From the IMG/VR virus record IMGVR_UViG_3300037467_000966: a DNA stretch of 64,000 bases. One strand, 5' to 3'. Numbering within the stretch: position 1 is the stretch's first letter; each line of letters opens with the position of its first letter. The notes under the pieces were generated by a model. It saw only the letters and a list, made by a program, of their open reading frames with translations. It was not told the DNA's origin and did no database searches. This DNA comes from a virus. Its lineage: Duplodnaviria; Heunggongvirae; Uroviricota; Caudoviricetes. Below, piece after piece: positions 3,856 to 21,824 of this stretch. Made by a program: the position numbers and the translations under genes.

Positions 3856-3920
3856 GGCAGAAGCCCTCCTGGTCTCTTTTATTAACGATAAGCTTTATAA
3901 GACAGAATTGCAAGAATAAT

Positions 3921-5619: not shown

Positions 5620-5823
5620 TTATACATTTGCATCATTCTCCTTTTTCTTTTTCTTTAATTTATGCAAACCGAAATCAACAAGCGCATGTAAACCAAACCC
5701 AAGAAGGAATAGTTTAATAAGCCCGAAGAATCCAGTGAAATTAAATCCAAGATTAATTAAAGCTGTTGCAATAATAACGTACAGGATAGCGGCAATAATG
5801 AATCGTAAGTTACGATGACTCAT
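5620..5823 (-). CDS. Small hydrophobic membrane protein
   Basis: 67-aa ORF with two predicted TM stretches and a lysine-rich C-terminus. Abuts the vWA gene stop. Confidence 0.4.
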   Translation of the reverse strand: MSHRNLRFIIAAILYVIIATALINLGFNFTGFFGLIKLFLLGFGLHALVDFGLHKLKKKKKENDANV

Positions 5824-6614
5824 TACAATACAACACCTTTTGATTTCGCTTGACGTAACCAGTTAGGGAATTCTTTTAATACGGCTTCGTAAAGCTTCTC
5901 GTCAGCAATTCCATTCACATCTGAAATCTTTGTGAAGTCAGCGTTGTCTAAGTAGCGGCCTGTTAAATCATCCAATGATTGCAGATAGTTGAATGACTCA
6001 TTGCCGATACCGATGAACTGCCAGAAGATACCCTGCTTAGCAGCCTCAGTAATCACACGAGTTGTTTCAGAACGGTCACCATTGTCACCATCTGTCATGA
6101 AGAATACCAGTGTAGGAATCTTAACAGGCTTTACATCTTCAGGCATAACCGTCTTGCTTACTACTTCTGTTACGGTCTTTGATTTTGCACCGAACAGTTT
6201 GCCAAGGAATCCAGCTTCCACTTCTTTTGTTACTTCTTCTTGAACAACTTGTGGAGTGATAGCTGTGCCGTACTTAGCAATAATTTGTTTCATTACTGGA
6301 GCATACTCCGTACCACCAGATGCACGAAGACCCTTCTTCTTTAAGAAGTCTTTGTGATTGCTTTCATTGGCAGAACCAATATATTCATAGCCATGATTGA
6401 AAGCATAGATGTCGATTGATTTGTTTGGGTCCATGTTCATTCCAACGCCGATGAAGCGGTCAGCTTGTTCTTGAACATTCCCTTTGTCAATTTCCCATCC
6501 CATAGAACCTGATTTGTCGATAGCGAATACGATGTTCGCTTGAAGACCAGCAAGCCCTAACTTCTCTAATACGATTGCAGATTTCTTTTTTAAATCAATT
6601 ACGTTACCCAACAT
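5823..6614 (-). CDS. von Willebrand factor A (vWA) domain protein, TerY-like
   Basis: MIDAS motif VFAIDKSGSMG followed by ...FFMTDGDNGD. Sits next to the TerC/TerD genes. Confidence 0.8.
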   Translation of the reverse strand: MLGNVIDLKKKSAIVLEKLGLAGLQANIVFAIDKSGSMGWEIDKGNVQEQADRFIGVGMNMDPNKSIDIYAFNHGYEYIGSANESNHKDFLKKKGLRASGGTEYAPVMKQIIAKYGTAITPQVVQEEVTKEVEAGFLGKLFGAKSKTVTEVVSKTVMPEDVKPVKIPTLVFFMTDGDNGDRSETTRVITEAAKQGIFWQFIGIGNESFNYLQSLDDLTGRYLDNADFTKISDVNGIADEKLYEAVLKEFPNWLRQAKSKGVVL

Positions 6615-6619
6615 GTTTC

Positions 6620-6660
6620 TCCCCCTAGAAATTAGTAAAGCGGCCCCGAAAGACCGCTTA
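6620..6660 (-). terminator. Intrinsic terminator-like hairpin after terC
   Basis: aagcgg-ccccgaaaga-ccgctt stem-loop, then an A/U-rich tail on the transcribed strand. Confidence 0.45.
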
Positions 6661-6730
6661 TTTAAAGAATCGTCTGATAGCTCTGATGGCTCTGTCTATA
6701 GATGTAATCATGCTGATAAGTTGTCTGATA

Positions 6731-7483
6731 TTACGCGGCAACATTTTTCTTGCTGCCCTTGTTCTTTAATGCGTGAACCACAAATGTTAATCCAAATGTG
6801 ATGATTAAAACAATAAAGAATAACCAGTCTGGAGCTTCATATGAAGTCCAGTGTTGACCGATAAGGTTACCTACTTCATGCAGTTCAGTTACAAACATCT
6901 TAACCGCAATCAAGAAGATAAGAACGAATGCTGTTCCTTCCATCTCTGGAACCTTATTGATAAGCTTAATGAATACACCTGCAACAGAACGCATCATTAA
7001 GATACCAAGGATACCACCAGCGATTAATACATAGAAGCTTTGAGATAAAGCAAATGCTGCTAAGATACTATCAACAGAGAAAGCAATGTCCATTAACTCA
7101 ACAGAGATAATTGTTGTAACGAATGGCGACAAGCCAAGCTTACCAAAGAATGCTTGAACCTTGTTTTCTTCGAACTCGTCATTGATACCATCGCCGTCTT
7201 CGTCTTTCTTCTTAGAGGCAAAATGCTTAATAGATAAATAAGCAAGGTATAAAGCACCAACTGTTTTGATGGCCCATAAGTATTCCCAATCAGCGATATA
7301 AGCCCAGCCGAAGATACATACAGCACGGAAGATAATCGCGCCCCACATACCATAGAAAAGTGCTTTCTTTTGCTGACTAAGTGGTAATCTCTTTGTCATT
7401 ACTGCAAGTACTAATGCATTGTCTGCGCTTAGCAAACCTTCAAGTACGACTAACGTAACTACTAGTCCAATGATTGATAACAA
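6731..7483 (-). CDS. terC: TerC-family integral membrane protein
   Basis: Multi-TM 250-aa ORF with the TerC signature LLSADNALVLAV near the N-terminus. Confidence 0.85.
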   Translation of the reverse strand: MLSIIGLVVTLVVLEGLLSADNALVLAVMTKRLPLSQQKKALFYGMWGAIIFRAVCIFGWAYIADWEYLWAIKTVGALYLAYLSIKHFASKKKDEDGDGINDEFEENKVQAFFGKLGLSPFVTTIISVELMDIAFSVDSILAAFALSQSFYVLIAGGILGILMMRSVAGVFIKLINKVPEMEGTAFVLIFLIAVKMFVTELHEVGNLIGQHWTSYEAPDWLFFIVLIITFGLTFVVHALKNKGSKKNVAA

Positions 7484-7634
7484 CTATTCCAACTCCCTAA
7501 TTAATATTTGTTTTTGATTTTGTCCACTACATGTTTTGCTGCTGCCTTCACATTATCGTGAAAGAAGTGACCTACCACATAACCAACCACGAATGTAAGA
7601 ATCGTCCCTGACATCTTCATTCCCCCTGTAGATA

Positions 7635-7672
7635 TAATATCTATATATAAGAAAGGGCCGAAGCCCTCTCGT
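7635..7672 (-). terminator. Intrinsic terminator after terD (RNA hairpin GAGAGGGC-UUCG-GCCCUUUC plus U/A-rich tail)
   Basis: gaaagggccgaagccctctc inverted repeat immediately downstream of the 7676 stop. Confidence 0.55.
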
Positions 7673-7675
7673 ATT

Positions 7676-8257
7676 TTAAGCGACTGTTAATCCATAATCT
7701 TTAACGAAACCAGCTAGGCCATTTGCATAACCAGCACCGATAGCGTTGAATTTCCATTCGCCGTTTACTTTATAAATCTCACAAACTGCTACTCCAGTTT
7801 CAATAGAGAAGTCCTCACCTAAATCAAAGCGAAGGATTTCTTCATTTGTGATTTGGTCATACACGCGGACATAAGCATTGGATACTTGTCCGAAGTTTTG
7901 AGAACGACGCTCTGCTTCATAGATAGTTACTACGAAAGCAAGCTTCTGAATGTAAGCAGGCATTACTGAAAGGTCAACTTTGATTGTCTCATCATCGCCC
8001 TCTGTGCCACCAGTCAACTCATCCCCTGAGTGCTCAACTGCACCAGAAGCATGACGTAGATTATTATAGAATATAAAGTCGCCTTCGTCACGAGTTTTAT
8101 TTAATTCATTAACCATGAATACTGAAACATCCAGGTCAAAGTCTGCTCCGCCAGCATACTTATTTGTATCCCAGCCTAATGCTACATTAATCTTTGAAAG
8201 GTTTGTTCCTTTCGTTAAATCAACACGTTGCCCTTTTTTTACCAACTCAACTGCCAT
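7676..8257 (-). CDS. terD: TerD-domain stress/tellurite-resistance family protein
   Basis: GWDTN...GADFDLDVSVF...GD..TGGTEGDDETIKVDL...FVVTIY.A...QNFGQVSNAYVRV..GEWKF.A.GAGYA.GLA is a near-textbook TerD. Confidence 0.9.
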   Translation of the reverse strand: MAVELVKKGQRVDLTKGTNLSKINVALGWDTNKYAGGADFDLDVSVFMVNELNKTRDEGDFIFYNNLRHASGAVEHSGDELTGGTEGDDETIKVDLSVMPAYIQKLAFVVTIYEAERRSQNFGQVSNAYVRVYDQITNEEILRFDLGEDFSIETGVAVCEIYKVNGEWKFNAIGAGYANGLAGFVKDYGLTVA

Positions 8258-8388
8258 GATTCATTTCCCCTTTTCATAAAAGTCTTTTACTTCCATCCAT
8301 GCTTTTTTATAACCATAGTCATGACCTAAACAAAAGCCACCAACGACTGCGATGGTGACTATGCCTAGCATCTTTAACACTTCAATCA

Positions 8389-9006
8389 TTAGTTGATTCC
8401 AGCTACATAAGCCTCAAGACCGCCGCCGTAACCAGCGCCAACAGCTTTGAATTTCCAATCTCCACTGTGCTCATAAAGCTCACCAATAACCACGCAAGTT
8501 TCAATTGAGAAGTCCTCTGATAAGTCATAACGAGCTACCACTTCACCAGTTCCATCATTGACTACTTGCACATACGCATTGTGTACTTGACCAAAGTTTT
8601 GGTTACGTGTTGCTGCATCATAGATAGTGATAGCAAAACGAACAAACTTTGCAGCGATAGGAAGCTTCGCTAAATCAATTGTTACTGTTTCATCAGGGCC
8701 AGTACCTTCACCAGTACGGTTATCCCCAGAGGATACCACGCTGCCCGTAGGGTCACTTGGATTATTGAAGAATACGAATGAGTTCTCAGATATGATTTTG
8801 CCTCCATCACCTAAGATTGCAGCAGATGCATCTAAGTCAAATGCAGAACCGTCATACTGATTAGCATCCCAACCTAATTCCACTTTGAATTTTGTTACTC
8901 CTGGTACTGATTTTGTAAGATTGATGTTACCGCCTTTTTGCAAATTAATCATTTTGTTATTCCTCCCAATTTTTCTTTTGATTTTTTCTTGAATATATTT
9001 TATCAC
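8389..9006 (-). CDS. terD: TerD-domain protein (second paralogue)
   Basis: LGWDANQYDGSAFDLDASAAIL...SGDNRTGEGTGPDETVTIDL...QNFGQVHNAYVQV...GDWKFKAVGAGYGGGL has very high similarity to canonical TerD. Confidence 0.9.
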   Translation of the reverse strand: MIKYIQEKIKRKIGRNNKMINLQKGGNINLTKSVPGVTKFKVELGWDANQYDGSAFDLDASAAILGDGGKIISENSFVFFNNPSDPTGSVVSSGDNRTGEGTGPDETVTIDLAKLPIAAKFVRFAITIYDAATRNQNFGQVHNAYVQVVNDGTGEVVARYDLSEDFSIETCVVIGELYEHSGDWKFKAVGAGYGGGLEAYVAGIN

Positions 9007-11445: not shown

Positions 11446-12044
11446 ACCATCACTCCTTGAATAAAAAAAATTCTTTACCCAATAGAAAGTACAAACAAGA
11501 TAGGATTCGAATCAGCGTGTGCATGCCCCAGGTTAGCAGCTAAAGGAAACCATAGGTTCCTCCACTCATCTAATACCTATCATTGATAAGAGAACGTCAG
11601 ACCAGGCTGGTAATTTCTAGGCATGCATTTAACCCCACCTGTACCATGAGGTCACCTACAACGTCTTGGAATTCTCTTATGCGTACTCTCTATTCAGTAA
11701 AGAATTTAAAAAGCTCCTTGGGCAGGAAGAAAATAAGATACAATCATAGGCTTCAGTGCTTACCATCCGACAGTGGGACTCGAACCCACACGCCTCTCGG
11801 CGGACAGAGCTATCTCCGTCTGCGTCTGCCAATTTCGCCATGCCCGATGGGGCTTACTTGGCACCTATGATATGGAGAAGAACTTCGGATTGGTGTCTAT
11901 TGCAGACCCCAGAAGGAATCGAACCAGCTACTTTCCGCTTATAGGCGGCTGTTTTACCCAATAAACTATGCGGGCCTCCACTACACCGTAGTTCCTGGCA
12001 TTCTTCTCATTCTTATTCTCTACCTGCCCAAAGAGCAAGTAACC

Positions 12045-12990: not shown

Positions 12991-13019
12991 GTTATCACCT
13001 CATAAAAAAAGACTACCGC

Positions 13020-13937
13020 TTACGCAGTAGCCTCCGTCTTTTTAGCAGGAACTTTCTTCGCTGGAGTCTTCTTTACTTCCACTTCAGCCTTTGGTTCTTC
13101 AACTGGTTCTGGTTTTAAGAAACGTGCCTTATTCAGCTTGGTATCAAAGCTCATCGTTTGTGCATTGAAGGTAACGGCATGAGTCTTTAATCCTTCACCC
13201 TGTCTTGCGTCAGCTGATAACACTGTATTGGCAAAACCTAATGCTAAGTTCGCTGCCGTTTGGTTCGTAAAGATGTTCTGAGGATTGCTCACGGCCCGCT
13301 CCGCACAACTCATTTCATGTGGAAGTTTATCTGTTGCCTCTAGAATCTCTGGATACATATCCGCTACGCTTGGAAGATTGAATAAGTGAGGAACCTTTTC
13401 GCCCTTCACAAAGTCACGTCCAGCATTGTAACCAACAACAACTTGACCAGCCCACTCTTCATTTCCCATGTCCAGCCAGAACATACCTTTTGTTTCCTTG
13501 AACACTTCATTCACAATCGCACGAGTCTTATTGTTATCCACCGCACCGACTACGAAAGGAACCAAGTTATGCCGATTAACAATTTGCTTTAACATCTTTG
13601 GCCCATCCAGATATTCTCCAATGATGGTTACCTCAACACCGAACGCACCGCCATAACGCATGCCCATGATTTCAGCTTTGTTATGACCAACATCTCTTGG
13701 CAAGAAGTTCTGACGTGTTAAGTTCTTATCCTCAACGCTGTCTGCATCAATGATAGTTACTGCATGCAATGCCTTGTTCTCCAGCTTAAGCATTCTGTTT
13801 TGAAGACTGATTTGACGAATTAATTGTGGAATAAAATAACCGCCGTTGCCGCCTGCTCCAATAATAATCCAATGCTTTGCCTTCTTTGCTTGTACATCCA
13901 AAGTATAAGTTGGTTCTAATGCCATTGATAAATCCAT
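13020..13937 (-). CDS. E1-like ubiquitin-activating enzyme (ThiF/MoeB fold)
   Basis: Rossmann motif WIIIGAGGNGGY, then IIDADSVEDKNLTRQNF...DVGHNKAEI (the E1/ThiF ATP-binding and arginine-finger region). K/P/E-rich C-terminal tail. Confidence 0.8.
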   Translation of the reverse strand: MDLSMALEPTYTLDVQAKKAKHWIIIGAGGNGGYFIPQLIRQISLQNRMLKLENKALHAVTIIDADSVEDKNLTRQNFLPRDVGHNKAEIMGMRYGGAFGVEVTIIGEYLDGPKMLKQIVNRHNLVPFVVGAVDNNKTRAIVNEVFKETKGMFWLDMGNEEWAGQVVVGYNAGRDFVKGEKVPHLFNLPSVADMYPEILEATDKLPHEMSCAERAVSNPQNIFTNQTAANLALGFANTVLSADARQGEGLKTHAVTFNAQTMSFDTKLNKARFLKPEPVEEPKAEVEVKKTPAKKVPAKKTEATA

Positions 13938-14007
13938 GATTAATTCCTCCTAGTTTTTGTTTTGTTCCTTAATTGAAGTAAGAGCAGCCAAAGACTGCCC
14001 TCTCTTC

Positions 14008-15294
14008 TTAATCTAAGAACCAATCATTACGTTCGCCATGAAGATGACCATAACCGCTGTTCTCAGTCATTGTATCACTCACAACGTAATCGTACCCAAG
14101 GTCAATCAGCTCTTGAACGATTTCCTTAACGGTCTCTTCCACTTCGCCAATTGATTTAGTGTCGTCTCCCAGATTTTTTTCCAGAAAAATTTCGACTTCT
14201 GTTCTCGGCTCGCTGCTTGCGCTTTTGCTCGCGCTGCTCCCGCTTAGTGATTCTTTTTTTTTAGAATCTAAGCCTTGTGCTTTCGCATTAGCTGCCACAA
14301 TATCATCCTTGTTCGCTCGTCCCCCTGGTGAGCCATGGTAGCCATAGCCGCCAGATGTCCCATACCCATAGTAGTCCCACTCGTCCCCCCACTTGTCGTA
14401 ACTGGGAGATGTCCCTGTCCCCGACTTTTTTGCGTGATAGTTGTAACCTCCGTAAGAACGAGAGTGTTGTCCCATCCAATCGTCTGGAGCTTCAACACGA
14501 GGCCATGGTCCTTTAAATGATTTGTGTTCTACTTTTTCTTCGACTACTGGTTCGAATCCTTCTACTGGTACAGTAGTTGTTACCAGTGTCTTGATTTCTA
14601 CTTGAGGAATATCAAACAGCAAAGCTGGGTCAATGTTTACGCGTGTGCCGCCACATACCCAACGGAATAAGAAGTTTGGTTCATCCTTGTCGATGTTGCC
14701 CCATACTCCGTAGAACTGAGTCATGTTTTCATTGGCATCATCTGTACCAGACCAGAACGCTCCCATCGTATGGTGGCTGTGCGTCTCACATAATGGTGTG
14801 CAATTCTCACGAAGATAATTCACCATCCCATCCTGATGGAACTCAGATAATGAACCAGAGTTCTTTTGCTGTGGACAATACACAATCAACTGTCCATCTT
14901 CAATAAGGCCCTTGATGTCTGTGCCATCTGTATACTTTGGTGGCAGCTCCACATTATCATGATTCCAGAAGAACAATGCGCTGGCTTCTGTCTTATCCTT
15001 CGTATGAACATCACGATAGAAAGTTAATACCATGATTAGATACTTCAAAGGAATCTTTGGAATCAATAACTCTGGACCTTCTTCCATTGATTCAAGACCT
15101 GGAATTGCTTTGTCCGCTGGGATATCTGAAAGCTTTACTTTGAATAAAGCAACAGGAGTCTTCACCACTCGGAAGACCCCGTTACGTGCAACAACGATAT
15201 TGGTTGGTTTATCATAAGCCTCAGCTGGTTGTGGACCGAAGTGCTTACCTACTAATTGACCTGCTAACATTGCGGTTAAATCTAAATTTGCCAT
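14008..15294 (-). CDS. JAB/MPN (JAMM) metallopeptidase with long low-complexity G/Y/S-rich C-terminal region
   Basis: Perfect JAMM motif E...HSHHTMGAFWSGTD (H-x-H-x7-S-x2-D). Confidence 0.75.
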   Translation of the reverse strand: MANLDLTAMLAGQLVGKHFGPQPAEAYDKPTNIVVARNGVFRVVKTPVALFKVKLSDIPADKAIPGLESMEEGPELLIPKIPLKYLIMVLTFYRDVHTKDKTEASALFFWNHDNVELPPKYTDGTDIKGLIEDGQLIVYCPQQKNSGSLSEFHQDGMVNYLRENCTPLCETHSHHTMGAFWSGTDDANENMTQFYGVWGNIDKDEPNFLFRWVCGGTRVNIDPALLFDIPQVEIKTLVTTTVPVEGFEPVVEEKVEHKSFKGPWPRVEAPDDWMGQHSRSYGGYNYHAKKSGTGTSPSYDKWGDEWDYYGYGTSGGYGYHGSPGGRANKDDIVAANAKAQGLDSKKKESLSGSSASKSASSEPRTEVEIFLEKNLGDDTKSIGEVEETVKEIVQELIDLGYDYVVSDTMTENSGYGHLHGERNDWFLD

Positions 15295-15336
15295 TTTAAA
15301 ATTCCTCCAATTGTTTTAGTTTTTTGTTTGATTATC

Positions 15337-16095
15337 TTAACGTAAATACTGTTCACCATGACGACGAATGGCATCGCCTAAACGAATTGCTGGCTGTAAA
15401 ATATCATTCTTGAATCGTGGTGTTTCCCCTTTTGCGTCTGCTTCTTTACAGATTCTGTCCATGTATTGCAGTAAGTGAATCGTTCTCTCACGTACAATAC
15501 GTTGACCGTTTACCGTATCTTCAAAGCGCTCAAACTTGCCGCCATCTAAATCATTATTAAATGGATTAGCGAAGAAGCGGTCTGGAACAGTCATGATGGA
15601 TTTAGAACCACCAAGCGCTGGGTAATCAGACTCAGAACCCCAGCATAGGTAACTATGATTAGAGTTCGCAAATGGGAATGTATACAATTGGTCATTCAAG
15701 CTAAGCACAGGTTGCTTAATCGCATATGCTACTCCGTGGCGATACCGACGCGTATCATTTGCTGGGTTGTGCAAAACATGAATAATCCAAACTGCTGCTG
15801 GTGCTACAATCTGAAACTCAGGGAACGCATTCTCCCCTGTCTCGCTTCTCATATCAAACTTGGCAATGTGCCTTGTCTCTGGAGTTGCGATAACATACTG
15901 TTCCATGTTATTAACCTTTGTATATTTTTGTACGCCAAAACCATAAGGAAGAAGCGGCGATTCAATCCGCTCACCTCTGGTTAGGACTTCTTGAATTGCT
16001 TGAACATTTGTATTTTTGATTGAGCGCTCTCCATTACGGATAACTTCAATCTGAATACTATCTGGATTTAAGTGAATACTTGTGCGGTTTTCCAT
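15337..16095 (-). CDS. Putative E2-like (UBC-fold) conjugating enzyme
   Basis: FPFANSNHSYLCWGSESDYPAL aligns with the UbcH5 active-site region [23 protein letters not shown] (NSN-x-S-x2-C followed by S-x-W/Y-x-PAL). Adjacent to JAB and E1. Confidence 0.45.
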   Translation of the reverse strand: MENRTSIHLNPDSIQIEVIRNGERSIKNTNVQAIQEVLTRGERIESPLLPYGFGVQKYTKVNNMEQYVIATPETRHIAKFDMRSETGENAFPEFQIVAPAAVWIIHVLHNPANDTRRYRHGVAYAIKQPVLSLNDQLYTFPFANSNHSYLCWGSESDYPALGGSKSIMTVPDRFFANPFNNDLDGGKFERFEDTVNGQRIVRERTIHLLQYMDRICKEADAKGETPRFKNDILQPAIRLGDAIRRHGEQYLR

Positions 16096-16107
16096 TTCAA
16101 TTCCTCC

Positions 16108-17811
16108 TTAGAATGGTAAATCTTCTTCGTAAGTGTACTCTTCAATTACATCAAATGGCAGATGGTAATCATGGATTGCAACCCTTGCTCCATTGCTTAT
16201 ACCAGCGTATACGCATGCAGCATCAAGCTCACGGAAACGTCTTACATCCCCGCCTTCACGAATAACTACATAGCGCTCTAGTGGAATCGCTCTGCCGTTC
16301 ACATAGATGCCAGGTGCTGTTGCCCGCGGTGGTTCTGCAGTTGGTTCAGCTTGTACAACTTCTTCCACCTGAGCATTTAATCGAGCAATCAACTCATCAA
16401 ATGGCGTCTGCGTTGGAACTTCTTCCACCACTGGTTGTGCTGGCTGAGCTTGCAACTGTTGACGAAGTTGTTCAGCTAAAGCATGACGGCGTTCAGCATT
16501 GGCTCTCGCTTCTGCTTCTATACGCTGACGTTCTTGCTCTTCCAACTCTTGGAGTCGCGCTTCTTCCTCTTGGCGTCTTATGCGCTCAGCTTCCTGACGA
16601 GCACGTTCTTGTTCCATCTCACGACGGATTTGCTCTTCACGCTGACGACGTTCTTCTTCTAAACGAAGTCTTTCTGCTTCTTGACGAGCACGCTCTTCTG
16701 CCTCTTCACGCTCCTTCTGAATACGCTCCTGCTCTAACCAAGGCTCAATCTCAGCCTCCGCCTCACGACGGATACGCTGAGTAACCTCTAGCAACTCAGT
16801 ATGTCCTTCTGGCAATAAGTGCTTCCAGAATTCCATATTAAATTCAGCATAGATGTAATCTTGGATAACGATTGGAGCAACACCATTACGGCTACGGTCA
16901 CCAGTCATATCAATGCTGGTAACTTTACCCCAACCTTGCAGCTCATAACCTTCTGGCTCTTGGTAACCATCGAATGGTGGCAATGCAATCCATCCTTCTT
17001 CTTCAGAACCTGATGGAGCCATAACCTTTACCTTGAGTCCTGTAGGCACCATTTCCGCCGCTGTAGGAGCGACAGCATATTCAGGAGCCTTACCATTCTC
17101 TCTTGCCCATTCAAGGAACTTGTGAGCAAATAAGCGGTCTGTTGCATCAGCTGATTCTTGAAGCTGAACCGCTGGCTTGAATAACTTCTCCATCACCCTG
17201 CGGCTATAATCTCGAAGCTCAGTGCGGATACGCTCTAATCGTTCTTGCTCACGGCGCTGAATCTCTGCTTCCATTAACCTTGTAACTTCACCATGGATTG
17301 CAGCTAGCGCAGAATCCTTACTGTACTCAGCATCAATCCAGTTAACAAAATCAACTAGGCCAGACTGAATGAATTGATAGATGCGATTGGTCTTGAACGG
17401 AATGTACAAGAATGTATTCCCGTTTCTTTCTTCGCGGCGAACCACATAACCAGATTGAAAAGAATTACGATTGTCTCTCATTCTCCTATAAAGCTGATTG
17501 TGGTTCTGCTCAAACCAAGACTTCCATTCAGGTTCACTATTATAGATTTCTCTTATCTTGTTAGCTTTCCTGTGGATGTGACTATCAAGACGTAGAGAAT
17601 AACTATGTTGGTTCTGTCTAATGCGACAGCCAGGGAACTTCTTCTTTAGATAAGCGAACACTAAATCTTTCACTATCTCTTCTTCCTGTGCTCCTGTTTG
17701 TGGAAGCGGCGGAAACTCTTCAATGTATTGCTTGTTGGCAAGTAGCCTAGAACTCATTACAAAGTTTAACTTGCTGACTAATGCGGTTGCATTAACTGTC
17801 ATGTCCCTCAC
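16108..17811 (-). CDS. Large hypothetical protein with long E/R/Q-rich coiled-coil segment
   Basis: 567-aa ORF inside the Ubl-E2-JAB-E1 operon. Candidate adaptor, E3 or target. Confidence 0.6.
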   Translation of the reverse strand: MRDMTVNATALVSKLNFVMSSRLLANKQYIEEFPPLPQTGAQEEEIVKDLVFAYLKKKFPGCRIRQNQHSYSLRLDSHIHRKANKIREIYNSEPEWKSWFEQNHNQLYRRMRDNRNSFQSGYVVRREERNGNTFLYIPFKTNRIYQFIQSGLVDFVNWIDAEYSKDSALAAIHGEVTRLMEAEIQRREQERLERIRTELRDYSRRVMEKLFKPAVQLQESADATDRLFAHKFLEWARENGKAPEYAVAPTAAEMVPTGLKVKVMAPSGSEEEGWIALPPFDGYQEPEGYELQGWGKVTSIDMTGDRSRNGVAPIVIQDYIYAEFNMEFWKHLLPEGHTELLEVTQRIRREAEAEIEPWLEQERIQKEREEAEERARQEAERLRLEEERRQREEQIRREMEQERARQEAERIRRQEEEARLQELEEQERQRIEAEARANAERRHALAEQLRQQLQAQPAQPVVEEVPTQTPFDELIARLNAQVEEVVQAEPTAEPPRATAPGIYVNGRAIPLERYVVIREGGDVRRFRELDAACVYAGISNGARVAIHDYHLPFDVIEEYTYEEDLPF

Positions 17812-17816
17812 CTCTC

Positions 17817-18368
17817 TTAAATAAAGTCAATAGATTCAACTGCTACTGTTCTTGCACGAGTTATTTGATTCACAAAGCCAACGACTTGTCTTTCTACTTC
17901 TGGCAAACGACGCTGTATCTGATGCTTAAAATCATTAAGTTGACTATCATTGTAACGACTAAAGTCCTGAACGGTTTGTGCATTGTTTATCGTTTCAATG
18001 ATTTGTCTTAGGTCAGATGTCAGCAAAAATCTTTCCCGTTCACCCTCAAGGTCATTACAAATCCTTGCGATGTCTGGTAAGAATCCATTTGCTTCCCAGT
18101 GGTCAGCAGGCTCTTCATTCCTTACTACTTCTACTTCCACTGCTGGTCTTGCCTGTACTGCTTCTTCTGGATTCACTTGTTCATTCCTCCTTAGTGATTC
18201 ACATCTTTGACAAACTCGATAATGTGAATAAGAATCTCTATCAACCGTTTGGTTGCTGAAGCCTTGACCGCAATACATTCTGTCGCCGCTTCTTCTAATA
18301 TGAAGAACTCGCGTTGTATTACTTGGAACATACTCAATCGTTGCTACCATCTCTACACTCCCTTTCAT
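17817..18368 (-). CDS. Hypothetical protein with N-terminal Cys cluster (C-x19-CxxC), possible zinc-binding module
   Basis: 183-aa ORF directly downstream of the hexa-repeat gene. Confidence 0.55.
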   Translation of the reverse strand: MKGSVEMVATIEYVPSNTTRVLHIRRSGDRMYCGQGFSNQTVDRDSYSHYRVCQRCESLRRNEQVNPEEAVQARPAVEVEVVRNEEPADHWEANGFLPDIARICNDLEGERERFLLTSDLRQIIETINNAQTVQDFSRYNDSQLNDFKHQIQRRLPEVERQVVGFVNQITRARTVAVESIDFI

Positions 18369-18428
18369 AAAAAAATAGAGGGCCGTGCATAAGCAAGCAG
18401 CCCTCTACCTTTTGTCATGGTATCCAGA

Positions 18429-19508
18429 TTAAGCTAATTTAATCACTAGCTTTGTGAAACGGGCACCTTTCGTACCAGCTTTCACGGTGAAACGAATCTC
18501 GTCGCCAACCACTTCGAATGTTGCATTCTTCAGTTCAGGGAAGATTTCGCTCATGGATGCCTGGATTTCTTCAGGCTTTAAGCTGTCGTCTTCCACGTTA
18601 AGGCGGTTAGAGCCGTATACAACGACTCTCGCACCTTTCGTACCAGCCTTAACAGTGAATCGGATTTCATCCCCAACAACTTCAAACGTTGCGTTTTTCA
18701 ACTCAGGAAAGATTTCAGACATGGAAGCCTGAATCTCTTCTGGTTTTAAGGAATCATCCTCAACATTTAAACGATTAGAACCATAAACAACTACGCGTGC
18801 CATACCTTTCGTCCCCGCTTTCACTGTGAATCGAATTTCATTTCCAACTACCTCGTAGGTAGCATTCTTCAACTCTGGAAAAATCTCAGACATAGATGCC
18901 TGGATTTCTGCTGGAGTCAAAGATGAGTCCTCTACATTCAGACGGTTTGAACCATACACAACAACTCTTGTCATACCTTTTGTACCTGCCTTTACTGTGA
19001 ATCGGATTTCGTTTCCTACTACTTCATACGTAGCATTTTTAAGCTCTGGGAAAATCTCGCTCATAGAAGCTTGAATCTCCGCTGGTGTTAAAGAAGAATC
19101 TTCAACATTCAAACGATTGGAGCCGTAAACAACCACGCGGGTCTGGCCTGAACCAGAACCCTTTGTGCCTGCTTTGACAGTGAAACGAATCTCATTGCCT
19201 ACGACTTCGAAAGTAGCGTTCTTAAGCTCAGGGAAAATCTCAGACATAGAAGCTTTGATTTCCTCTGGGCTTAAAGAATCATCCTCAACGTTTAAGCGGT
19301 TGGAACCGTATACCACAACGCGGGTAGCACCCTTCGTCCCAGCTTTAACTGTGAAGCGGATTTCGTTTCCAACGACTTCGTAAGTTGCATTCTTTAACTC
19401 AGGAAAAATTTCAGACATTGACGCTTGAATTTCTGCAGGTGTTAAAGAAGAATCCTCCACGTTAAGACGATTTGAACCATAAACCACTACTCTTGTTTGA
19501 TTAGACAT
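18429..19508 (-). CDS. Tandem hexa-repeat small-domain protein (6 x ~57 aa, each unit ending ...KAGTKG), candidate polyubiquitin-like precursor
   Basis: Six near-identical units (T)RVVVYGSNRLNVED(S/D)SL(T/K)P(A/E)EI(Q/K)ASMSEIFPELKNAT(Y/F)EVVG(N/D)EIRFTVKAGTKG. First gene of the operon that ends with E2-like, JAB and E1. Confidence 0.6.
   Translation of the reverse strand: MSNQTRVVVYGSNRLNVEDSSLTPAEIQASMSEIFPELKNATYEVVGNEIRFTVKAGTKGATRVVVYGSNRLNVEDDSLSPEEIKASMSEIFPELKNATFEVVGNEIRFTVKAGTKGSGSGQTRVVVYGSNRLNVEDSSLTPAEIQASMSEIFPELKNATYEVVGNEIRFTVKAGTKGMTRVVVYGSNRLNVEDSSLTPAEIQASMSEIFPELKNATYEVVGNEIRFTVKAGTKGMARVVVYGSNRLNVEDDSLKPEEIQASMSEIFPELKNATFEVVGDEIRFTVKAGTKGARVVVYGSNRLNVEDDSLKPEEIQASMSEIFPELKNATFEVVGDEIRFTVKAGTKGARFTKLVIKLA
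18462..19499 (-). repeat. Six tandem ~171-180 bp near-identical coding repeats
   Basis: DNA-level repetition is visible (e.g. gtgaaacgaatctcgtc/gccaac...cttcagttcaggg recurs with period ~171-180 bp). Confidence 0.85.
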
Positions 19509-19573: not shown

Positions 19574-19614
19574 CATAAAAAAGACTAGGTAGGAACCCCT
19601 AAGAACCCACCTAG
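19574..19614 (-). terminator. Hairpin plus U-run upstream of the hexa-repeat gene (terminator or attenuator)
   Basis: ctaggtagg-N13-ccacctag inverted repeat followed by an A6 run on the plus strand (U6 on RNA). Confidence 0.4.
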
Positions 19615-19857
19615 TTAAAAGAATCGTCGCGATATCCCCATCGCTTCAGATTGCTGTCTTTCCAGCCGTCAAAAATATAGTCAAGTCAGATAAAGTTAGT
19701 CAGACCTTATCGACGGTGGGAAGCACGTTAGTCAGACGTACACCCTAGAATCCAAAAACAATAAGCAATGTTAACATTAAAACATAAAATCAGCTTTGAA
19801 GAAAAGTTCTAAAAGTTTGAGACCATTTAGAAACTGGTGAATCTGATTGTCGAAACC

Positions 19858-20037
19858 TTACAAACCCATTTTCTTGATTACTTGATTCTTCATCTTGCGT
19901 TTTACTCCATTGACTTTTGAGTTCAACTTCTTCTTGATGAACTTCTCAGGGTCGGCCTGCATCTCAAGGGCCGCGGCCATGGCGTTCAACTTCTTCGCCA
20001 TAGCACGCAACTCTTTCGGGTTGTTAGAGAACAACAT
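19858..20037 (-). CDS. Small basic protein (59 aa), translationally coupled (TAATG) to the upstream gene
   Basis: Minus-frame MLFSNNPKELRAMAKKLNAMAAALEMQADPEKFIKKKLNSKVNGVKRKMKNQVIKKMGL. Below the 60-aa track threshold. Confidence 0.4.
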   Translation of the reverse strand: MLFSNNPKELRAMAKKLNAMAAALEMQADPEKFIKKKLNSKVNGVKRKMKNQVIKKMGL

Positions 20038-21824
20038 TATTTGTTGCCCTTAACATCCTTAGCTTGTGCTTGTGGAGCTGCTGGGGCGCCTCCAAACAGA
20101 CCACCTTGACCATTGAATCCACCCATTAAAGCAAGAGTAGTTAGGTCAAGTTCGCCATCGCCAAGAGCTAGCATCATCATTGGATTGAAGTTGCCGCCGC
20201 CTTGTTGACCCATCATCATCAATGGAAGAAGCTTATCCTTAGAACCGCCATCTTTCATTGCAAGAAGCATCAATGGATTGAATCCTTGAGAAGCTACTCC
20301 ACCTTGTTGCATCAACATTAATGGTAGTAAGTCATCCATGTTATCGCCAAGAAGCATTAACATTGTTGGGTCGATTGCTCCACCCTGAGCACCACCAAAG
20401 CCGCCAGTAAGAGCCATGATTTTCACAAGCTCATCCTTGTTACCATCGCCAAGGGCAAGAAGTAAAGCTGGGTTGAATCCGCCTTGACCAGCAGCATCCA
20501 ATGTCTTAACAACAGTGTAGAATGCTTTACCAAAGATTGGGTTAGTAGTTGGTAGTACAGAACCATTAGCGTTCTTTTCAGGTACAACCACTTCTACATA
20601 ACCATCATTTACTTTAGTAACATACCCAAAATCAGCACCGTTTAATACAATGTCTCCAACTTTTACTTCATCAGCAGCAGTTGGTAATTTGAATGCAGGT
20701 ACATTGAAGTCAAGAGTTAATCCAGTTACATCAGTGATAGTGCGTGTTGCTGGTTCGAATGCCACAAAGTTTTGAGAGATACCTTTACGAAGTGCAAGAC
20801 CGCCAGTTGTGATTGAGAATGCAAATTTTCCTTCTACTTTACCAAATTGATTTTTGAATGCTCCGAATAAGTTTTTCATAGTTCCATTACCTCCGATTGT
20901 TTTGTTTGATTTTTGGTTTAATTTTGCGTTTAATTGAGCTTGTACATCAGCTTGCTGTTTTGCTTGTGCTAACTTTTGGTTTAATTGATTTTGAATATCC
21001 ACTTTCAACGCCTCCGCTTTTTGTTTTTGTTCGATTGCTGCCACACGATTGATAGCTTCATATGCTGCATCTTGTGCATCATACGCTACATCAGCAACAC
21101 TTTCGATTTCGTGAGCAACATCACTCACTCTGTCATCAAGGCTACCAATTTCATAACCAAGACTGTTTACTGCGCTTTGAAGACGACTTGCATCTTCTCG
21201 TACTTCGTTTGCCCTTTGCTTTGCAATTGCCGCATCAAGCCGTGCTTGGCTACCCACTTGCTGAGCAGATTGAGCACGAAGATTAGCTGTTAAAGAAGAT
21301 TGTTTTGCTTCTTCAACTTCCTTGCTGATGTTGTTCACGCCATCAAACATGCTGACATGTGAATAAGCATGAGAGTGAGCTAGGTTATAGTCGCCATAAA
21401 AAGATTCAGCACCACGGAAAGCGTAGTAATCGTCGTCCTCTTCCTCCTCTTCGTCATCCTCATCGTCCCAATCGTCATCTCCGTAGATATCATCTTCTGT
21501 ATAGCTAGAAGCTTGTTCTACTTGAGCGCGAAGAGAATCAGTTAACGACTGACCTTTCACTTGCGCCCGAAGCTGAGAAGTTAAATCATTCTTCTTTGTA
21601 TCAACCACGTTAACTAGATGATACTCAGCTCCTTCATATCCTTGAATCAGAGTGCCAATACCACGCTTCTGAGATTCAAAGATGCCAGCTGCTACTTGCT
21701 TACGAACAAGAACTTGATGTCCTGTATTCGTATCAATCTTGTAGTTGCTCCCTCCAATCGTAATAATTTCACCAACTGCGACATCAGATAGTTTTCTTAA
21801 ACCCACTGTGTCAACCTCCTTCAT
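20037..21824 (-). CDS. Large hypothetical protein: N-terminal domain, poly-acidic tract (DDDWDDEDDEEEEEDDD), coiled coil, C-terminal Met/Leu/Gly-rich repeats (FNPxLLLAxGDG...GG)
   Basis: 595-aa ORF with 3-4 degenerate C-terminal repeats. Confidence 0.7.
   Translation of the reverse strand: MKEVDTVGLRKLSDVAVGEIITIGGSNYKIDTNTGHQVLVRKQVAAGIFESQKRGIGTLIQGYEGAEYHLVNVVDTKKNDLTSQLRAQVKGQSLTDSLRAQVEQASSYTEDDIYGDDDWDDEDDEEEEEDDDYYAFRGAESFYGDYNLAHSHAYSHVSMFDGVNNISKEVEEAKQSSLTANLRAQSAQQVGSQARLDAAIAKQRANEVREDASRLQSAVNSLGYEIGSLDDRVSDVAHEIESVADVAYDAQDAAYEAINRVAAIEQKQKAEALKVDIQNQLNQKLAQAKQQADVQAQLNAKLNQKSNKTIGGNGTMKNLFGAFKNQFGKVEGKFAFSITTGGLALRKGISQNFVAFEPATRTITDVTGLTLDFNVPAFKLPTAADEVKVGDIVLNGADFGYVTKVNDGYVEVVVPEKNANGSVLPTTNPIFGKAFYTVVKTLDAAGQGGFNPALLLALGDGNKDELVKIMALTGGFGGAQGGAIDPTMLMLLGDNMDDLLPLMLMQQGGVASQGFNPLMLLAMKDGGSKDKLLPLMMMGQQGGGNFNPMMMLALGDGELDLTTLALMGGFNGQGGLFGGAPAAPQAQAKDVKGNK

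What the first reader, a model, noticed from the sequence alone, without database searches (positions are those of the whole stretch)
13020..19508. Phage-borne ubiquitin-like conjugation operon in Bil order: poly-Ubl - X - X - E2-like - JAB - E1
One minus-strand operon encodes, in transcription order: a six-fold tandem small-domain protein (19508->18429), a Cys-cluster protein, a 567-aa coiled-coil protein, a candidate UBC-fold protein (15337-16095), a JAB/MPN peptidase with a perfect H-x-H-x7-S-x2-D JAMM motif (14008-15294), and an E1/ThiF-family activating enzyme (13020-13937).

The order Ubl-E2-DUB-E1 matches bacterial BilABCD-type (ISG15/ubiquitin-like) conjugation systems. Those are known as anti-phage defences encoded by bacteria. 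Here the cassette sits inside an apparent phage genome, among DNA replication, NAD+ and structural genes, which suggests a phage-encoded Ubl conjugation or deconjugation machine. It could act on virion proteins, on host proteins, or as a counter-defence. The two extra proteins may be adaptor, E3 or target.
Basis: partly seen in the sequence, partly recalled or inferred. Interest (0 to 1): 0.9.

Follow-up and report, generated by a model that had tools for sequence, protein, structure and literature searches.

The report
Phage-encoded polyubiquitin-like conjugation cassette
A jumbo phage related to Bacillus phages carries what looks like a complete ubiquitin-style protein-tagging kit (a six-copy tag precursor, an activating enzyme, a carrier enzyme and a trimming protease); it belongs to the uncharacterised PRTRC type, not the Bil defence type, and looks like an inherited core module of this phage lineage.

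Summary
The six minus-strand ORFs exist as described. The 359-aa protein is six head-to-tail Prok_Ub/PRTRC_C units (Pfam 5.9e-30). Each unit ends in AGTKG and an 11-aa cap follows the last one. The units are 90-100% identical in protein, but their synonymous codons are fully randomised, as in polyubiquitin genes. A unit models as a ubiquitin-like beta-grasp.

The 305-aa protein is a ThiF/E1, closest to PRTRC_ThiF. The 428-aa protein is a JAB with an intact JAMM motif. The 252-aa protein has an invariant Cys151 and a downstream His207. It gets no family hit itself, but its orthologues pass Pfam Prok-E2_D. Fold evidence for E2 is weak.

The families and gene order (C-x-x-B-A-ThiF) match the PRTRC system (Iyer 2006, operon type 6D), as annotated in Ralstonia phage Dina. 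They do not match Bil. The two extra proteins are cassette-specific and of unknown function. The "Cys cluster" is a lineage-specific N-terminal extension.

The cassette is syntenic in Bacillus jumbo phages WH1, Edson and KLEB27-3 and in several metagenomic jumbo-phage contigs, with 2-6 Ubl units. It is absent from 185,579 species-representative genomes.

Verdict: a real feature and a new variant of a known but uncharacterised kind. Function and targets are inferred, not shown.

The parts
18429..19508 (-). Polyubiquitin-like precursor (359 aa). Six Prok_Ub/PRTRC_C units lie at 19329-19508, 19158-19328, 18975-19157, 18804-18974, 18633-18803 and 18465-18632. Each ends ...KAGTKG. An 11-aa C-terminal cap (ARFTKLVIKLA) lies at 18432-18464.
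17817..18176 (-). Conserved small acidic protein ('ORF5' core, about 119 aa from GTG 18176). Its C-terminus is an invariant D-[FY]-I. Function unknown. It is specific to the phage form of the cassette.
   Evidence: Seven homologues of 118-139 aa start at the position of this GTG, which is preceded by AGGAGG. No Pfam, NCBIfam or PHROG hit. It sits between the Ubl gene and ORF4 in every related locus.
18177..18368 (-). In-frame N-terminal extension of ORF5 (64 aa) holding the 'Cys cluster' (C33, C53, C56, H23, H49). It is lineage-specific, and whether it is translated is unresolved.
   Evidence: tblastn finds no homologue in the 14 related loci held at that point or elsewhere in the window. There is only a weak, sub-threshold RYYR-CCHC hit (E 0.008, 16.5 bits against a cut-off of 27). 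A possible SD, AAGGGAG, lies before ATG 18350.
16108..17811 (-). 567-aa cassette-specific protein ('ORF4'). It has an N-terminal domain, a middle beta-rich domain of about 85 aa (residues about 251-337), an E/R/Q-rich coiled coil (residues about 345-470) and a small C-terminal domain. It occupies the slot that PRTRC_F holds in classical PRTRC operons. Function unknown.
   Evidence: Only 37 representatives among 1.84 billion proteins. The middle domain also occurs as stand-alone proteins of 88-138 aa. No Pfam family. No PDB relative apart from coiled-coil noise. No similarity to Dina PRTRC_F. Syntenic in all relatives.
15337..16095 (-). E2-like protein of Prok-E2 family D, the PRTRC_B equivalent (252 aa). 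The candidate catalytic Cys151 (15643-15645) lies in FPFAN-x5-LCWG. The downstream His207 (15475-15477) lies in a helix.
14008..15294 (-). JAB/JAMM metallopeptidase (428 aa). It has an N-terminal domain, Glu103 (14986-14988), the motif HSHHTMGAFWSGTD (14740-14781), a G/Y/S-rich low-complexity linker and an acidic C-terminal domain.
   Evidence: Pfam Prok-JAB 1.5e-5, 25.3 bits. NCBIfam PRTRC_A 8.3e-10, 38.5 bits, below the 101.8 cut-off. The motif is conserved in all relatives, including Dina PRTRC_A and Arash gp247c.
13020..13937 (-). E1-like ThiF-family adenylyltransferase (305 aa). It has GAGGNGG (13839-13859), DADSVEDKNLTRQ (13710-13748), a single conserved Cys211 (13305-13307) and a Lys/Pro/Ala-rich C-terminal tail.
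   Evidence: Pfam ThiF 2.4e-11. NCBIfam PRTRC_ThiF 8.2e-37, 126.8 bits, below the 144.75 cut-off. The Cys and the motifs are conserved through to Dina PRTRC ThiF and Arash gp246c. 50-52% identical to the ThiF proteins of Bacillus phages WH1, Edson and KLEB27-3.
18371..18412 (-). Hairpin plus U-run immediately after the poly-Ubl stop codon. It is a candidate (leaky) intrinsic terminator or attenuator separating the Ubl gene from the enzyme genes.
   Evidence: RNA fold: -26.4 kcal/mol, z = -5.2, and 0 of 200 shuffles fold as well.
13008..13035 (-). Intrinsic-terminator-like hairpin plus T-run overlapping the E1 stop codon. It marks the likely 3' end of the transcription unit.
   Evidence: Found by the terminator scan. 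Fold: -17.6 kcal/mol, z = -4.9.
19584..19615 (-). Weaker hairpin plus T-run upstream of the poly-Ubl gene. It suggests that the Ubl gene has its own transcription start within the 350-nt gap.
   Evidence: Fold: -17 kcal/mol, z = -2.2. This is inference only.
20037..21824 (-). 595-aa upstream neighbour, homologous to WH1 gp208 ('virion structural protein'), followed by a 59-aa ORF at 19858-20037. It is adjacent to the cassette in most relatives but not in KLEB27-3. It is probably context, not part of the system.
   Evidence: No Pfam or PHROG hit.

Best explanation
This is a phage-encoded ubiquitin-like protein conjugation system of the PRTRC / Iyer-Burroughs-Aravind '6D' type. It has been rebuilt around a polyubiquitin-style precursor.

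Proposed mechanism:
1. The 359-aa precursor is made in excess. It has its own SD and a hairpin/U-run between it and the enzyme genes.
2. The JAB metallopeptidase cuts after the Gly of each ...AGTKG unit. This removes the 11-aa cap and releases six near-identical beta-grasp monomers of about 57 aa with a free C-terminal Gly.
3. The ThiF-type E1 adenylates that Gly, possibly via a thioester on Cys211.
4. The Ubl passes to Cys151 of the E2-like protein and then onto lysines of target proteins.
5. The JAB can also reverse the modification.

The two cassette-specific proteins (ORF5 core and ORF4) are the best candidates for adaptor/E3-like specificity factors or for the substrates themselves.

The cassette is syntenic in all three sequenced isolates with the closest DNA polymerases and has diverged to a similar degree as the polymerase. 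I therefore favour a pro-viral role needing stoichiometric amounts of tag, such as modifying phage or virion proteins or host proteins during infection, over an accessory defence role.

Shown: the domain families, the catalytic motifs, the repeat architecture and its selection signature, the beta-grasp model, the synteny and the distribution. Inferred: processing, adenylation, thioester transfer, conjugation, targets and biological role.

The confidence of 0.6 is for the whole statement. Roughly: 0.9 that this is a PRTRC-type Ubl/E1/E2/JAB system, 0.6 for the processing-and-conjugation mechanism, and 0.35 for the pro-viral role.
For: Families:
- Prok_Ub x6 (5.9e-30), ThiF and Prok-JAB.
- PRTRC_C above its curated cut-off, with the best E1 and JAB hits to PRTRC_ThiF and PRTRC_A.
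- Orthologues of the 252-aa protein pass Prok-E2_D.

Catalytic residues are conserved out to Dina and Arash: E1 Cys211 and the ATP motifs, E2 Cys151 and His207, and the JAMM motif. The E2 pattern of a Cys, no classical His and a conserved downstream His is exactly what Iyer et al. described for type 6D.

The gene order equals the annotated PRTRC operon of phage Dina.

The precursor has the logic of polyubiquitin:
- Every unit in every relative ends in Gly.
- The inter-unit linkers vary.
- Copy number ranges from 2 to 6.
- pN is 0.057 against pS 0.85, and synonymous codons are fully randomised.
Together these show that each unit is selected as the same mature protein.

Bacterial PRTRC_C proteins are single units that end exactly at ...KG.

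There is an experimental precedent for JAB pre-processing after Gly: BilC cuts BilA between Gly97 and Ala98.

Vertical inheritance: the only three phage isolates with about 60% identical DNA polymerase all carry the cassette. The flanks are syntenic, with NT5C downstream. No relative was found in 185,579 species genomes.
Against: - There are no biochemical or genetic data for any PRTRC/6D system, nor for this cassette, in the literature I could search.
- The E1 and JAB score below NCBIfam's curated PRTRC cut-offs.
- No ParB, PRTRC_E, PRTRC_F or RING/E3 was detected.
- The targets are unknown.
- The WH1 record calls its poly-Ubl a 'virion structural protein' on an unstated basis. That could mean the unprocessed protein is itself structural.
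- The pro-viral role is inferred only from conservation and synteny.
Confidence: 0.6

Rival explanations
1. It is a Bil-like conflict system carried by the phage. The same E1/E2/JAB/Ubl chemistry would be used to tag and disable competing phages (superinfection exclusion) or other mobile elements, as Bil tags the central tail fibre.
For: Bil, CBASS type II and 6A-MBL, which are E1/E2/JAB systems, are anti-phage systems, and other uncharacterised operon families are predicted to be so. Classical PRTRC sits on ICEs, plasmids and temperate phages such as Dina. The window also carries other stress or defence-like cargo, a Ter cluster.
Against: The cassette is a syntenic, co-diverging part of the genome in all three isolates with the closest DNA polymerases, not a sporadic island gene. 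No PADLOC defence model fits beyond weak Cap2 E1 similarity. A 4-6-copy precursor points to bulk demand for the tag in every infection.
Confidence: 0.2
2. The poly-Ubl is an unprocessed structural (virion) protein made of beta-grasp beads. The adjacent enzymes act on something else or only trim it.
For: WH1 gp211, the 5-unit orthologue, is annotated 'virion structural protein', and the upstream neighbour's homologue gp208 is too. Multi-beta-grasp Ubls of the Bil/Bub systems act as multi-domain units and filaments.
Against: The basis of the WH1 annotation is not stated. Units are near-identical, each ends in the family's reactive Gly, and the linkers are variable. The last unit is capped by 1-19 unrelated residues, sometimes a single residue. 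That pattern is expected for a precursor of monomers, not for a beaded fibre. Single-unit bacterial homologues end exactly at that Gly. Copy number varies from 2 to 6 among close relatives.
Confidence: 0.1
3. It is a counter-defence module. The JAB strips host Ubl or CD-NTase conjugates (Bil, CBASS type II), and the phage Ubl/E1/E2 acts as a decoy or competitor for the host conjugation machinery.
For: The JAB has an intact active site and extra C-terminal domains not found in classical PRTRC_A. The host-encoded systems it could oppose are known.
Against: A deconjugase alone would be enough for that job. Here a complete, co-evolving Ubl-E1-E2 set plus two further conserved proteins is maintained. 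No sequence similarity to Bil, Bub or Cap proteins was detected.
Confidence: 0.07
4. It is a ThiS/MoaD-type sulfur-carrier or small-molecule adenylation pathway, with no protein conjugation.
For: The E1 also hits ThiF and MoeB models at lower scores. The Ubl model also resembles MoaD/ThiS.
Against: No rhodanese, cysteine desulfurase or thiazole/molybdopterin synthase partner is present. An E2-like protein with a conserved Cys and a JAB are present. A six-copy carrier would be unprecedented for a cofactor pathway. Iyer et al. separate 6D from the sulfur-transfer operons.
Confidence: 0.03

Closest known systems
PRTRC system (ParB-related, ThiF-related cassette; NCBIfam TIGR03735-03742), which is operon type 6D of Iyer, Burroughs & Aravind 2006; for example Ralstonia phage Dina gp02-gp07
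   Same: It has the same four protein families: Prok_Ub/PRTRC_C, Prok-E2_D/PRTRC_B, Prok-JAB/PRTRC_A and PRTRC-type ThiF. The order is the same, C ... B-A-ThiF. The E2 signature is the same (a Cys plus a downstream His, with no HPN His). The Ubl C-terminal motif, G-x-K-G, is the same. It is also carried by mobile elements, including phages.
   Different: The Ubl is a 2-6-unit capped precursor instead of a single 67-69-aa protein. PRTRC_E, PRTRC_F (alpha-hel2) and ParB are absent, and two unrelated cassette-specific proteins take their place. The JAB has extra low-complexity and acidic C-terminal domains. The E1 and JAB score below the curated PRTRC cut-offs. The host element is a lytic-looking jumbo phage lineage of more than 200 kb.
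BilABCD (bacterial ISG15-like) systems, types I and II (Hor et al. 2024; Chambers et al. 2024)
   Same: It has separate Ubl, E2, JAB DUB and E1 genes in one operon. In Bil the DUB pre-processes the Ubl after a Gly and E1/E2 conjugate it to lysines. This is the best-characterised mechanistic model for what is proposed here.
   Different: No detectable sequence relationship to solved Bil proteins or to PADLOC models. The E1 is a minimal 305-aa ThiF without a separate CYS domain. There is no CEHH protein. Bil is a host defence, whereas this is phage-encoded and lineage-conserved.
Eukaryotic polyubiquitin genes (UBI4, UBB, UBC)
   Same: Both have head-to-tail identical units with no or minimal spacers. 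Each unit ends in Gly, and extra residue(s) cap the last unit. Units are identical in protein but differ at synonymous sites. Copy number varies between relatives. Processing by a deubiquitinase is required (established knowledge for eukaryotes; for the phage).
   Different: The similarity is analogous, not orthologous. The unit is a 57-aa minimal beta-grasp of the Prok_Ub family ending in a single Gly (TKG), not the 76-aa ubiquitin ending RGG. It is probably processed by a JAB rather than by USP/UCH enzymes.
Bub (6E/DUF6527) and type II Bil multi-beta-grasp Ubls (Gong et al. 2024, PMC11601603)
   Same: One polypeptide holds several beta-grasp domains and sits next to E1, E2 and peptidase genes.
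   Different: Those proteins hold one to three non-identical domains that act together as dimers or Ca2+-dependent filaments. Here the units are near-identical, and each carries the reactive C-terminal motif.
Type II CBASS Cap2/Cap3
   Same: ThiF-type E1 chemistry, an E2-like Cys and a JAB that reverses or primes conjugation. The only PADLOC hits of the E1 are to Cap2 models.
   Different: In Cap2 the E1 and E2 are fused, there is no Ubl (the CD-NTase itself is conjugated), and no CD-NTase or effector is present here.
Lambda/T1 tail-assembly TAPI (Ubl) + TAPK (JAB + NlpC/P60)
   Same: It is a phage precedent for a beta-grasp protein with a C-terminal Gly next to a JAB peptidase.
   Different: It has no E1 or E2, so processing occurs without conjugation. 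The families and genomic context are different.

Membership tests
PRTRC system / Iyer 2006 type 6D | Small beta-grasp Ubl of the Prok_Ub/PRTRC_C family with a conserved C-terminal Gly | tested here: met
   Pfam Prok_Ub 103 bits (gathering score 25) and NCBIfam PRTRC_C 54.7 bits (cut-off 45.95). Each unit ends G-T-K-G, aligned with the bacterial PRTRC_C C-terminus. The model is a beta-grasp.
PRTRC system / Iyer 2006 type 6D | E2-like protein (Prok-E2_D/PRTRC_B) with a conserved Cys, no classical E2 His and a conserved downstream His | tested here: met
   The window protein has no HMM hit itself. Its orthologues score 26-40 bits against a gathering score of 25. C151 is invariant and H207 is at least 90% conserved, and both align with Dina PRTRC_B. 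Fold support is weak.
PRTRC system / Iyer 2006 type 6D | JAB peptidase (PRTRC_A) with an N-terminal JAB-N domain | tested here: inconclusive
   Prok-JAB scores 25.3 bits, at the gathering score. PRTRC_A scores 38.5 bits against a cut-off of 101.8, over the C-terminal part of the model only. The JAMM motif is intact. An N-terminal domain is present and aligns loosely with Dina's.
PRTRC system / Iyer 2006 type 6D | PRTRC-type ThiF E1 | tested here: inconclusive
   PRTRC_ThiF is the best NCBIfam hit by far (8.2e-37, 126.8 bits), but it is below the curated cut-off of 144.75.
PRTRC system / Iyer 2006 type 6D | PRTRC_E and PRTRC_F (alpha-helical) proteins | tested here: not met
   ORF4 and ORF5 have no NCBIfam or Pfam hit. 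ORF4 versus Dina PRTRC_F gives BLASTP E 0.052 and hhalign probability 0.1.
PRTRC system / Iyer 2006 type 6D | Associated ParB-related protein | tested here: not met
   No ParB domain was found among the ORFs scanned with Pfam or PHROGs (the six cassette ORFs, 10 neighbouring ORFs and 10 large ORFs elsewhere in the window). Small ORFs elsewhere in the window were not all scanned.
PRTRC system / Iyer 2006 type 6D | Gene order C-(F)-B-A-ThiF on one strand | tested here: met
   The window order is Ubl-ORF5-ORF4-E2-JAB-E1, and the Dina order is E-C-F-B-A-ThiF.
BilABCD (type I/II Bil) | Sequence or profile membership of BilA, BilB, BilC and BilD | tested here: not met
   No PDB chain matched the Ubl, the Ubl profile, the JAB or the E2 profile, and no Bil, Bub or Cap2 chain matched any of them; the E1's only match was a weak one (E 0.005) to an unnamed ThiF-type protein, 9egc. 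PADLOC gave only Cap2 E1-E2 hits at 1e-6 or weaker. I could not verify which Bil models that PADLOC release holds.
BilABCD (type I/II Bil) | Operon with separate Ubl, E2, JAB DUB and E1 | tested here: met
   This feature is shared with PRTRC and so does not discriminate.
BilABCD (type I/II Bil) | Anti-phage defence function encoded by the host | not testable with these tools
   Here the cassette is on a phage genome. Its function was not assayed.
Polyubiquitin-type precursor (functional class, not a homology family) | Tandem near-identical units each ending in the reactive Gly, a capped last unit, protein identity maintained against synonymous divergence | tested here: met
Polyubiquitin-type precursor (functional class, not a homology family) | Proteolytic release of monomers by a DUB | not testable with these tools
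   Inferred from the adjacent intact JAB and from the BilC precedent.
Type II CBASS (Cap2/Cap3) | E2-E1 fusion protein plus a CD-NTase substrate | tested here: not met
   The E1 and E2 are separate genes. No CD-NTase was found in the cassette or in the neighbours scanned.

The most novel reading that the evidence does not exclude
A lineage of jumbo phages infecting Bacillus-like hosts encodes its own polyubiquitin-style tag factory as a core, vertically inherited module: a capped 2-6-unit precursor, a processing JAB, an E1, an E2 and two dedicated specificity or substrate proteins. The phages use it pro-virally to attach a 57-aa Ubl covalently to virion or host proteins in bulk during every infection. 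This would be a virus-side counterpart of the bacterial Bil/CBASS conjugation defences. It would also be an independent invention of the polyubiquitin gene architecture outside eukaryotes.
Probability: 0.35. Interest if true: 0.85.

Novelty: new variant of a known kind. Interest (0 to 1): 0.68.

Why it matters
Protein conjugation by bacterial E1/E2/Ubl systems has so far been demonstrated only for host-encoded systems (CBASS type II, Bil, Bub; anti-phage roles are shown for the first two). The PRTRC/6D family was predicted in 2006 and is widespread on mobile elements, but I found no experimental characterisation of it.

This cassette offers three things.
1. It is a 6D-type system in cultured, lytic Bacillus phages (WH1, Edson, KLEB27-3), so the family becomes directly testable by phage genetics and proteomics.
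2. It is evidence that viruses of bacteria, not only their hosts, maintain complete Ubl conjugation machinery as conserved genome content.
3. It is a striking convergent copy of the eukaryotic polyubiquitin gene design: identical units, a terminal cap and randomised synonymous sites. That bears on why this design evolves, for example for rapid stoichiometric supply of tag or for resistance of the repeats to recombination.

If the targets turn out to be virion proteins, this would be a new mode of phage particle maturation. If they are host proteins, it would be a new host-takeover mechanism.

Tried and rejected
- megablast of the whole cassette against 50,697 phage records found no match.
- PHROGs gave no family for five of the six proteins. 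The hits for the repeat protein have no matched stretch passing the threshold on its own, so I treat them as noise from summing weak matches over six repeats.
- PADLOC gave only weak Cap2 E1-E2 hits.
- Sequence and profile searches of all PDB chains with the Ubl, the Ubl profile, the E1, the JAB, the E2 profile and the ORF4 profile found nothing informative.
- Foldseek of the E2 model against PDB found nothing below E 0.4. The afdb50 library was not available.
- Testing ORF4 as a divergent PRTRC_F by BLASTP and hhalign gave no support. An hhalign of the E2 profile against the single Dina PRTRC_B sequence was not significant (E 0.27), although the Cys regions align.
- A single-unit word-indexed protein search returned only 2 hits. 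It was repeated successfully with an alignment.
- Scans of IMG/VR and of the species genomes with the E2 alignment found no relatives. A species-genome scan with the Ubl alignment found none. IMG/VR with the Ubl alignment gave one 244-kb UViG.
- Literature searches for PRTRC, for Prok_Ub/Prok-E2, and for jumbo phage + ubiquitin-like + ThiF found no paper describing this cassette. The papers on 0305phi8-36 and BpSp do not mention it. One search was wasted on an over-broad term.
- I considered and rejected the idea that the 'Cys cluster' marks a conserved Zn-binding E3-like protein, because it is absent from all homologues.
- I considered using the Salmonella phage Arash virion MS as evidence that E1 and E2 are packaged. 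I rejected it as weak, because 116 proteins including RNA polymerase were called 'structural'.

Full report
**1. Observation**

The window as a whole looks like one strand-biased phage genome segment. PHROG hits include DNA polymerase (phrog_405, E = 0), nicotinamide phosphoribosyltransferase, a sigma factor and a tRNA nucleotidyltransferase. By DNA polymerase, the closest sequenced phages are Bacillus jumbo phages vB_BauM_KLEB27-3, vB_BceM_WH1 and Edson (60-61% aa identity). The next-best hits drop to about 40%.

**2. The tag precursor**

The 359-aa protein (18429-19508) consists of six units of 56-61 aa. Each ends ...KAGTKG, they are joined by 0-5 variable residues, and an 11-aa cap (ARFTKLVIKLA) follows the last one.
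- Pfam Prok_Ub matches all six units (5.9e-30). NCBIfam PRTRC_C scores above its curated cut-off.
- A 27-sequence alignment of one unit with bacterial PRTRC_C proteins gave an AlphaFold model with pLDDT 86. Its topology is beta-beta-alpha-(short alpha)-beta-beta.

The repeat has a distinctive selection signature.
- The units are 90-100% identical in protein but only 70-83% identical in DNA. Between units pS is 0.85 and pN is 0.057.
- At amino-acid-identical positions, 58.4% of codons differ. Independent draws from the window's own codon usage would give 58.7 +/- 2.1%. So the DNA is not homogenised at all, and the protein identity is held by selection.
- The same design recurs in every relative examined. 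There are 5 units in WH1 and Edson, 4 in KLEB27-3, 6, 6 and 4 in three metagenomic contigs, 4+3 split over two genes in another, and 2 in more distant lineages.
- In every case each unit ends in Gly and a 1-19-residue cap follows the last Gly, sometimes a single residue.
- Bacterial PRTRC_C proteins, by contrast, are single 67-69-aa domains that terminate exactly at ...KG.

This is the architecture of eukaryotic polyubiquitin genes. It argues that each unit is released as the same mature monomer.

**3. The enzymes**

E1 (13020-13937):
- It hits Pfam ThiF. By a wide margin its best NCBIfam hit is PRTRC_ThiF (8.2e-37, 126.8 bits), although that is below the curated 144.75-bit cut-off.
- The nucleotide-binding GAGGNGG motif, the DxDxVExxNLxRQ motif and a single Cys (C211, in EMSCAER) are all present. 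All are conserved out to the PRTRC ThiF of Ralstonia phage Dina and to a ThiF in Salmonella phage Arash.

JAB (14008-15294):
- It has Glu103 and H172-S-H-x7-S-x2-D185, conserved in all relatives.
- It reaches the Pfam Prok-JAB gathering score (25.3 against 25). It partially matches PRTRC_A.

The 252-aa protein (15337-16095):
- It has no family hit of its own.
- 11 of the 25 sequences in the alignment (the window protein, which has no hit, plus 24 homologues) hit Pfam Prok-E2_D. Orthologues in Edson, three metagenomic lineages and others score 26-40 bits against a gathering score of 25.
- Cys151 (in FPFxN-x5-LCWG) is invariant and a downstream His207 is at least 90% conserved. Both align with PRTRC_B of phage Dina.
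- This is precisely the signature Iyer et al. gave for the E2-like protein of their fourth operon type: a Cys, no classical E2 His, and a conserved His further downstream.

Fold evidence for E2 is weak.
- The model is confident (pLDDT 84.9). Its order of elements is a beta-meander, a long loop with the Cys, then helices, which fits the E2 core.
- I therefore rest the E2 call on family, motif and position, not on fold.

**4. Which system it is**

- RefSeq annotates Ralstonia phage Dina gp07-gp02 as PRTRC E-C-F-B-A-ThiF. Pfam confirms C = Prok_Ub (2.6e-25), B = Prok-E2_D (1.6e-45) and F = alpha-hel2.
- The window reads C(x6)-ORF5-ORF4-B-A-ThiF.
- No cassette protein or profile matches any solved Bil, Bub or Cap2 chain. 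PADLOC yields only weak Cap2 E1-E2 hits for the E1.
- So the system works like Bil, which has separate Ubl, E2, JAB and E1 and in which a JAB pre-processes the Ubl after Gly97|Ala98. But it belongs to the PRTRC/6D lineage.

It is not a canonical PRTRC.
- PRTRC_E, PRTRC_F and ParB were not found.
- Two other proteins take their place in every phage version.

ORF4 (567 aa) belongs to a family with only 37 representatives among 1.84 billion proteins. It has no Pfam or PDB relative. Its middle domain of about 85 aa also occurs as stand-alone proteins.

ORF5 has a conserved core of about 100-120 aa ending in D-[FY]-I and a variable N-terminus.
- The homologues begin at the position of an in-frame GTG (18176) preceded by AGGAGG. 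In another lineage the N-terminus is a Rho_N/SAP-like domain.

**5. Operon structure**

- A strong hairpin followed by a U-run lies directly after the poly-Ubl stop codon (-26.4 kcal/mol, z = -5.2).
- A terminator-like hairpin overlaps the E1 stop codon (z = -4.9).
- A weaker hairpin precedes the Ubl gene.
- This fits, but does not prove, a design in which the Ubl gene is expressed in excess over the enzymes.

**6. Distribution**

- The six-gene cassette (Ubl(n), small protein, large protein, E2_D, JAB, ThiF) is syntenic in WH1, Edson and KLEB27-3. It is also syntenic in metagenomic contigs of up to 240-247 kb and in one 244-kb IMG/VR genome, often with the same NT5C gene downstream.
- Divergence of the cassette proteins from the Bacillus phages is 52% identity for the E1, 40% for the E2 and about 52% for the Ubl. 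That is of the same order as the DNA polymerase at 60%.
- No relative of the E2 or of the Ubl unit was found in one genome from each of 185,579 bacterial and archaeal species.
- I read this as vertical inheritance within a jumbo-phage clade rather than sporadic acquisition. That is the main, and only indirect, argument for a pro-viral role.

**7. Mechanism proposed**

1. The JAB cuts the precursor after each Gly.
2. The E1 adenylates the exposed Gly, with a possible Cys211 thioester.
3. The Ubl is transferred to Cys151 of the E2-like protein.
4. The Ubl is conjugated to lysines of targets, and the JAB can reverse this.
5. ORF4 and ORF5 act as adaptors or as substrates.

The families, motifs, architecture and selection signature are shown. 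All chemical steps, the targets and the biological role are inferred.

The rivals are listed in the Rival explanations section with their tests. They are a phage-borne anti-competitor system, an unprocessed structural poly-protein (WH1 gp211 is annotated 'virion structural protein' on an unstated basis), a counter-defence deconjugase or decoy, and a sulfur-carrier pathway.

**8. Novelty**

- The PRTRC/6D operon type has been known bioinformatically since 2006. It is already labelled in at least one phage genome. The KLEB27-3 record notes a PRTRC_A domain and a ThiF.
- The following appear undescribed in the literature I could search: the capped multi-unit precursor with the polyubiquitin-like selection signature, the replacement of PRTRC_E, PRTRC_F and ParB by two dedicated proteins, and the status of the cassette as a conserved module of a lytic-type jumbo-phage lineage. 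That library lacks most subscription journals, so priority cannot be excluded.
- I rate it a new variant of a known kind. Interest is moderately high, because three cultured Bacillus phages make the uncharacterised 6D family, and the idea of virus-side ubiquitin-like conjugation, directly testable.

Noticed in passing
window 5823-9006 (minus strand): A phage-borne tellurite-resistance-like gene cluster: vWA-TerF-like (5823-6614), TerC (6731-7483), TerD (7676-8257) and TerD (8389-9006). All are strong Pfam hits.
   Followed up: partly
window 5426-5512, 11764-11848, 11902-11976 (minus strand): ARAGORN calls three tRNA-like genes with abnormal 2- or 4-nt 'anticodons'. Rfam confirms tRNA at 5429-5512 (51.7 bits) and only just at 11904-11975 (31.4 bits). 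The middle one gets no Rfam hit. They may be intron-containing, frameshift-suppressor-like or degenerate phage tRNAs.
   Followed up: partly
window 18465-19508; also L001 4829-5728, L008 6081-6782: Ubl units within one genome are far more alike in protein (93-99%) than units from different genomes (about 52% between the window and WH1). Yet their synonymous sites are as different as random codon draws. This is concerted evolution at the protein level without any DNA homogenisation. It could reflect re-duplication followed by saturation, selection against recombinogenic repeats, or parallel co-evolution with E1, E2 and JAB. It is unresolved.
   Followed up: partly
L004 (Salmonella phage Arash OQ632216) 1519-4539: A second, unrelated phage lineage has an E2-like protein (gp248c, with the Cys aligned), a Prok-JAB (gp247c) and a ThiF (gp246c) in a row. 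No Ubl was recognisable in the adjacent ORFs I translated. Two of the three are annotated 'structural protein', from a very permissive virion MS that called 116 proteins.
   Followed up: partly
window 13020-13110 (E1 C-terminus); 14290-14500 (JAB linker): The E1 ends in a histone-H1-like Lys/Pro/Ala tail (KKTPAKKVPAKK). Close metagenomic relatives share it but WH1 and Edson do not. The JAB carries a G/Y/S/D-rich low-complexity linker and an acidic C-terminal domain that Dina PRTRC_A lacks.
   Followed up: no
window 16801-17061 (ORF4 residues about 251-337): The middle domain of ORF4 also exists as stand-alone proteins of 88-138 aa in the 1.84-billion-protein library, with no Pfam annotation. 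It may be a mobile binding module.
   Followed up: partly
window 20037-21824: The 595-aa upstream neighbour (homologue of WH1 gp208, 'virion structural protein') has a C-terminal third made of repeated Gly/Met/Leu-rich motifs (GGFNPxxLLALGDG...DLLPLMLMQQGG). It has no family hit.
   Followed up: no
MT835919.1 (human faecal 'Bacteriophage sp.' contig), hit H4: A human-gut phage contig encodes an E1 that is 32% identical over 82% of the window E1. Gut 'Bacteriophage sp.' contigs are also the next-closest DNA-polymerase relatives, at 37-40%. A related cassette may therefore exist in gut Bacillota phages.
   Followed up: no
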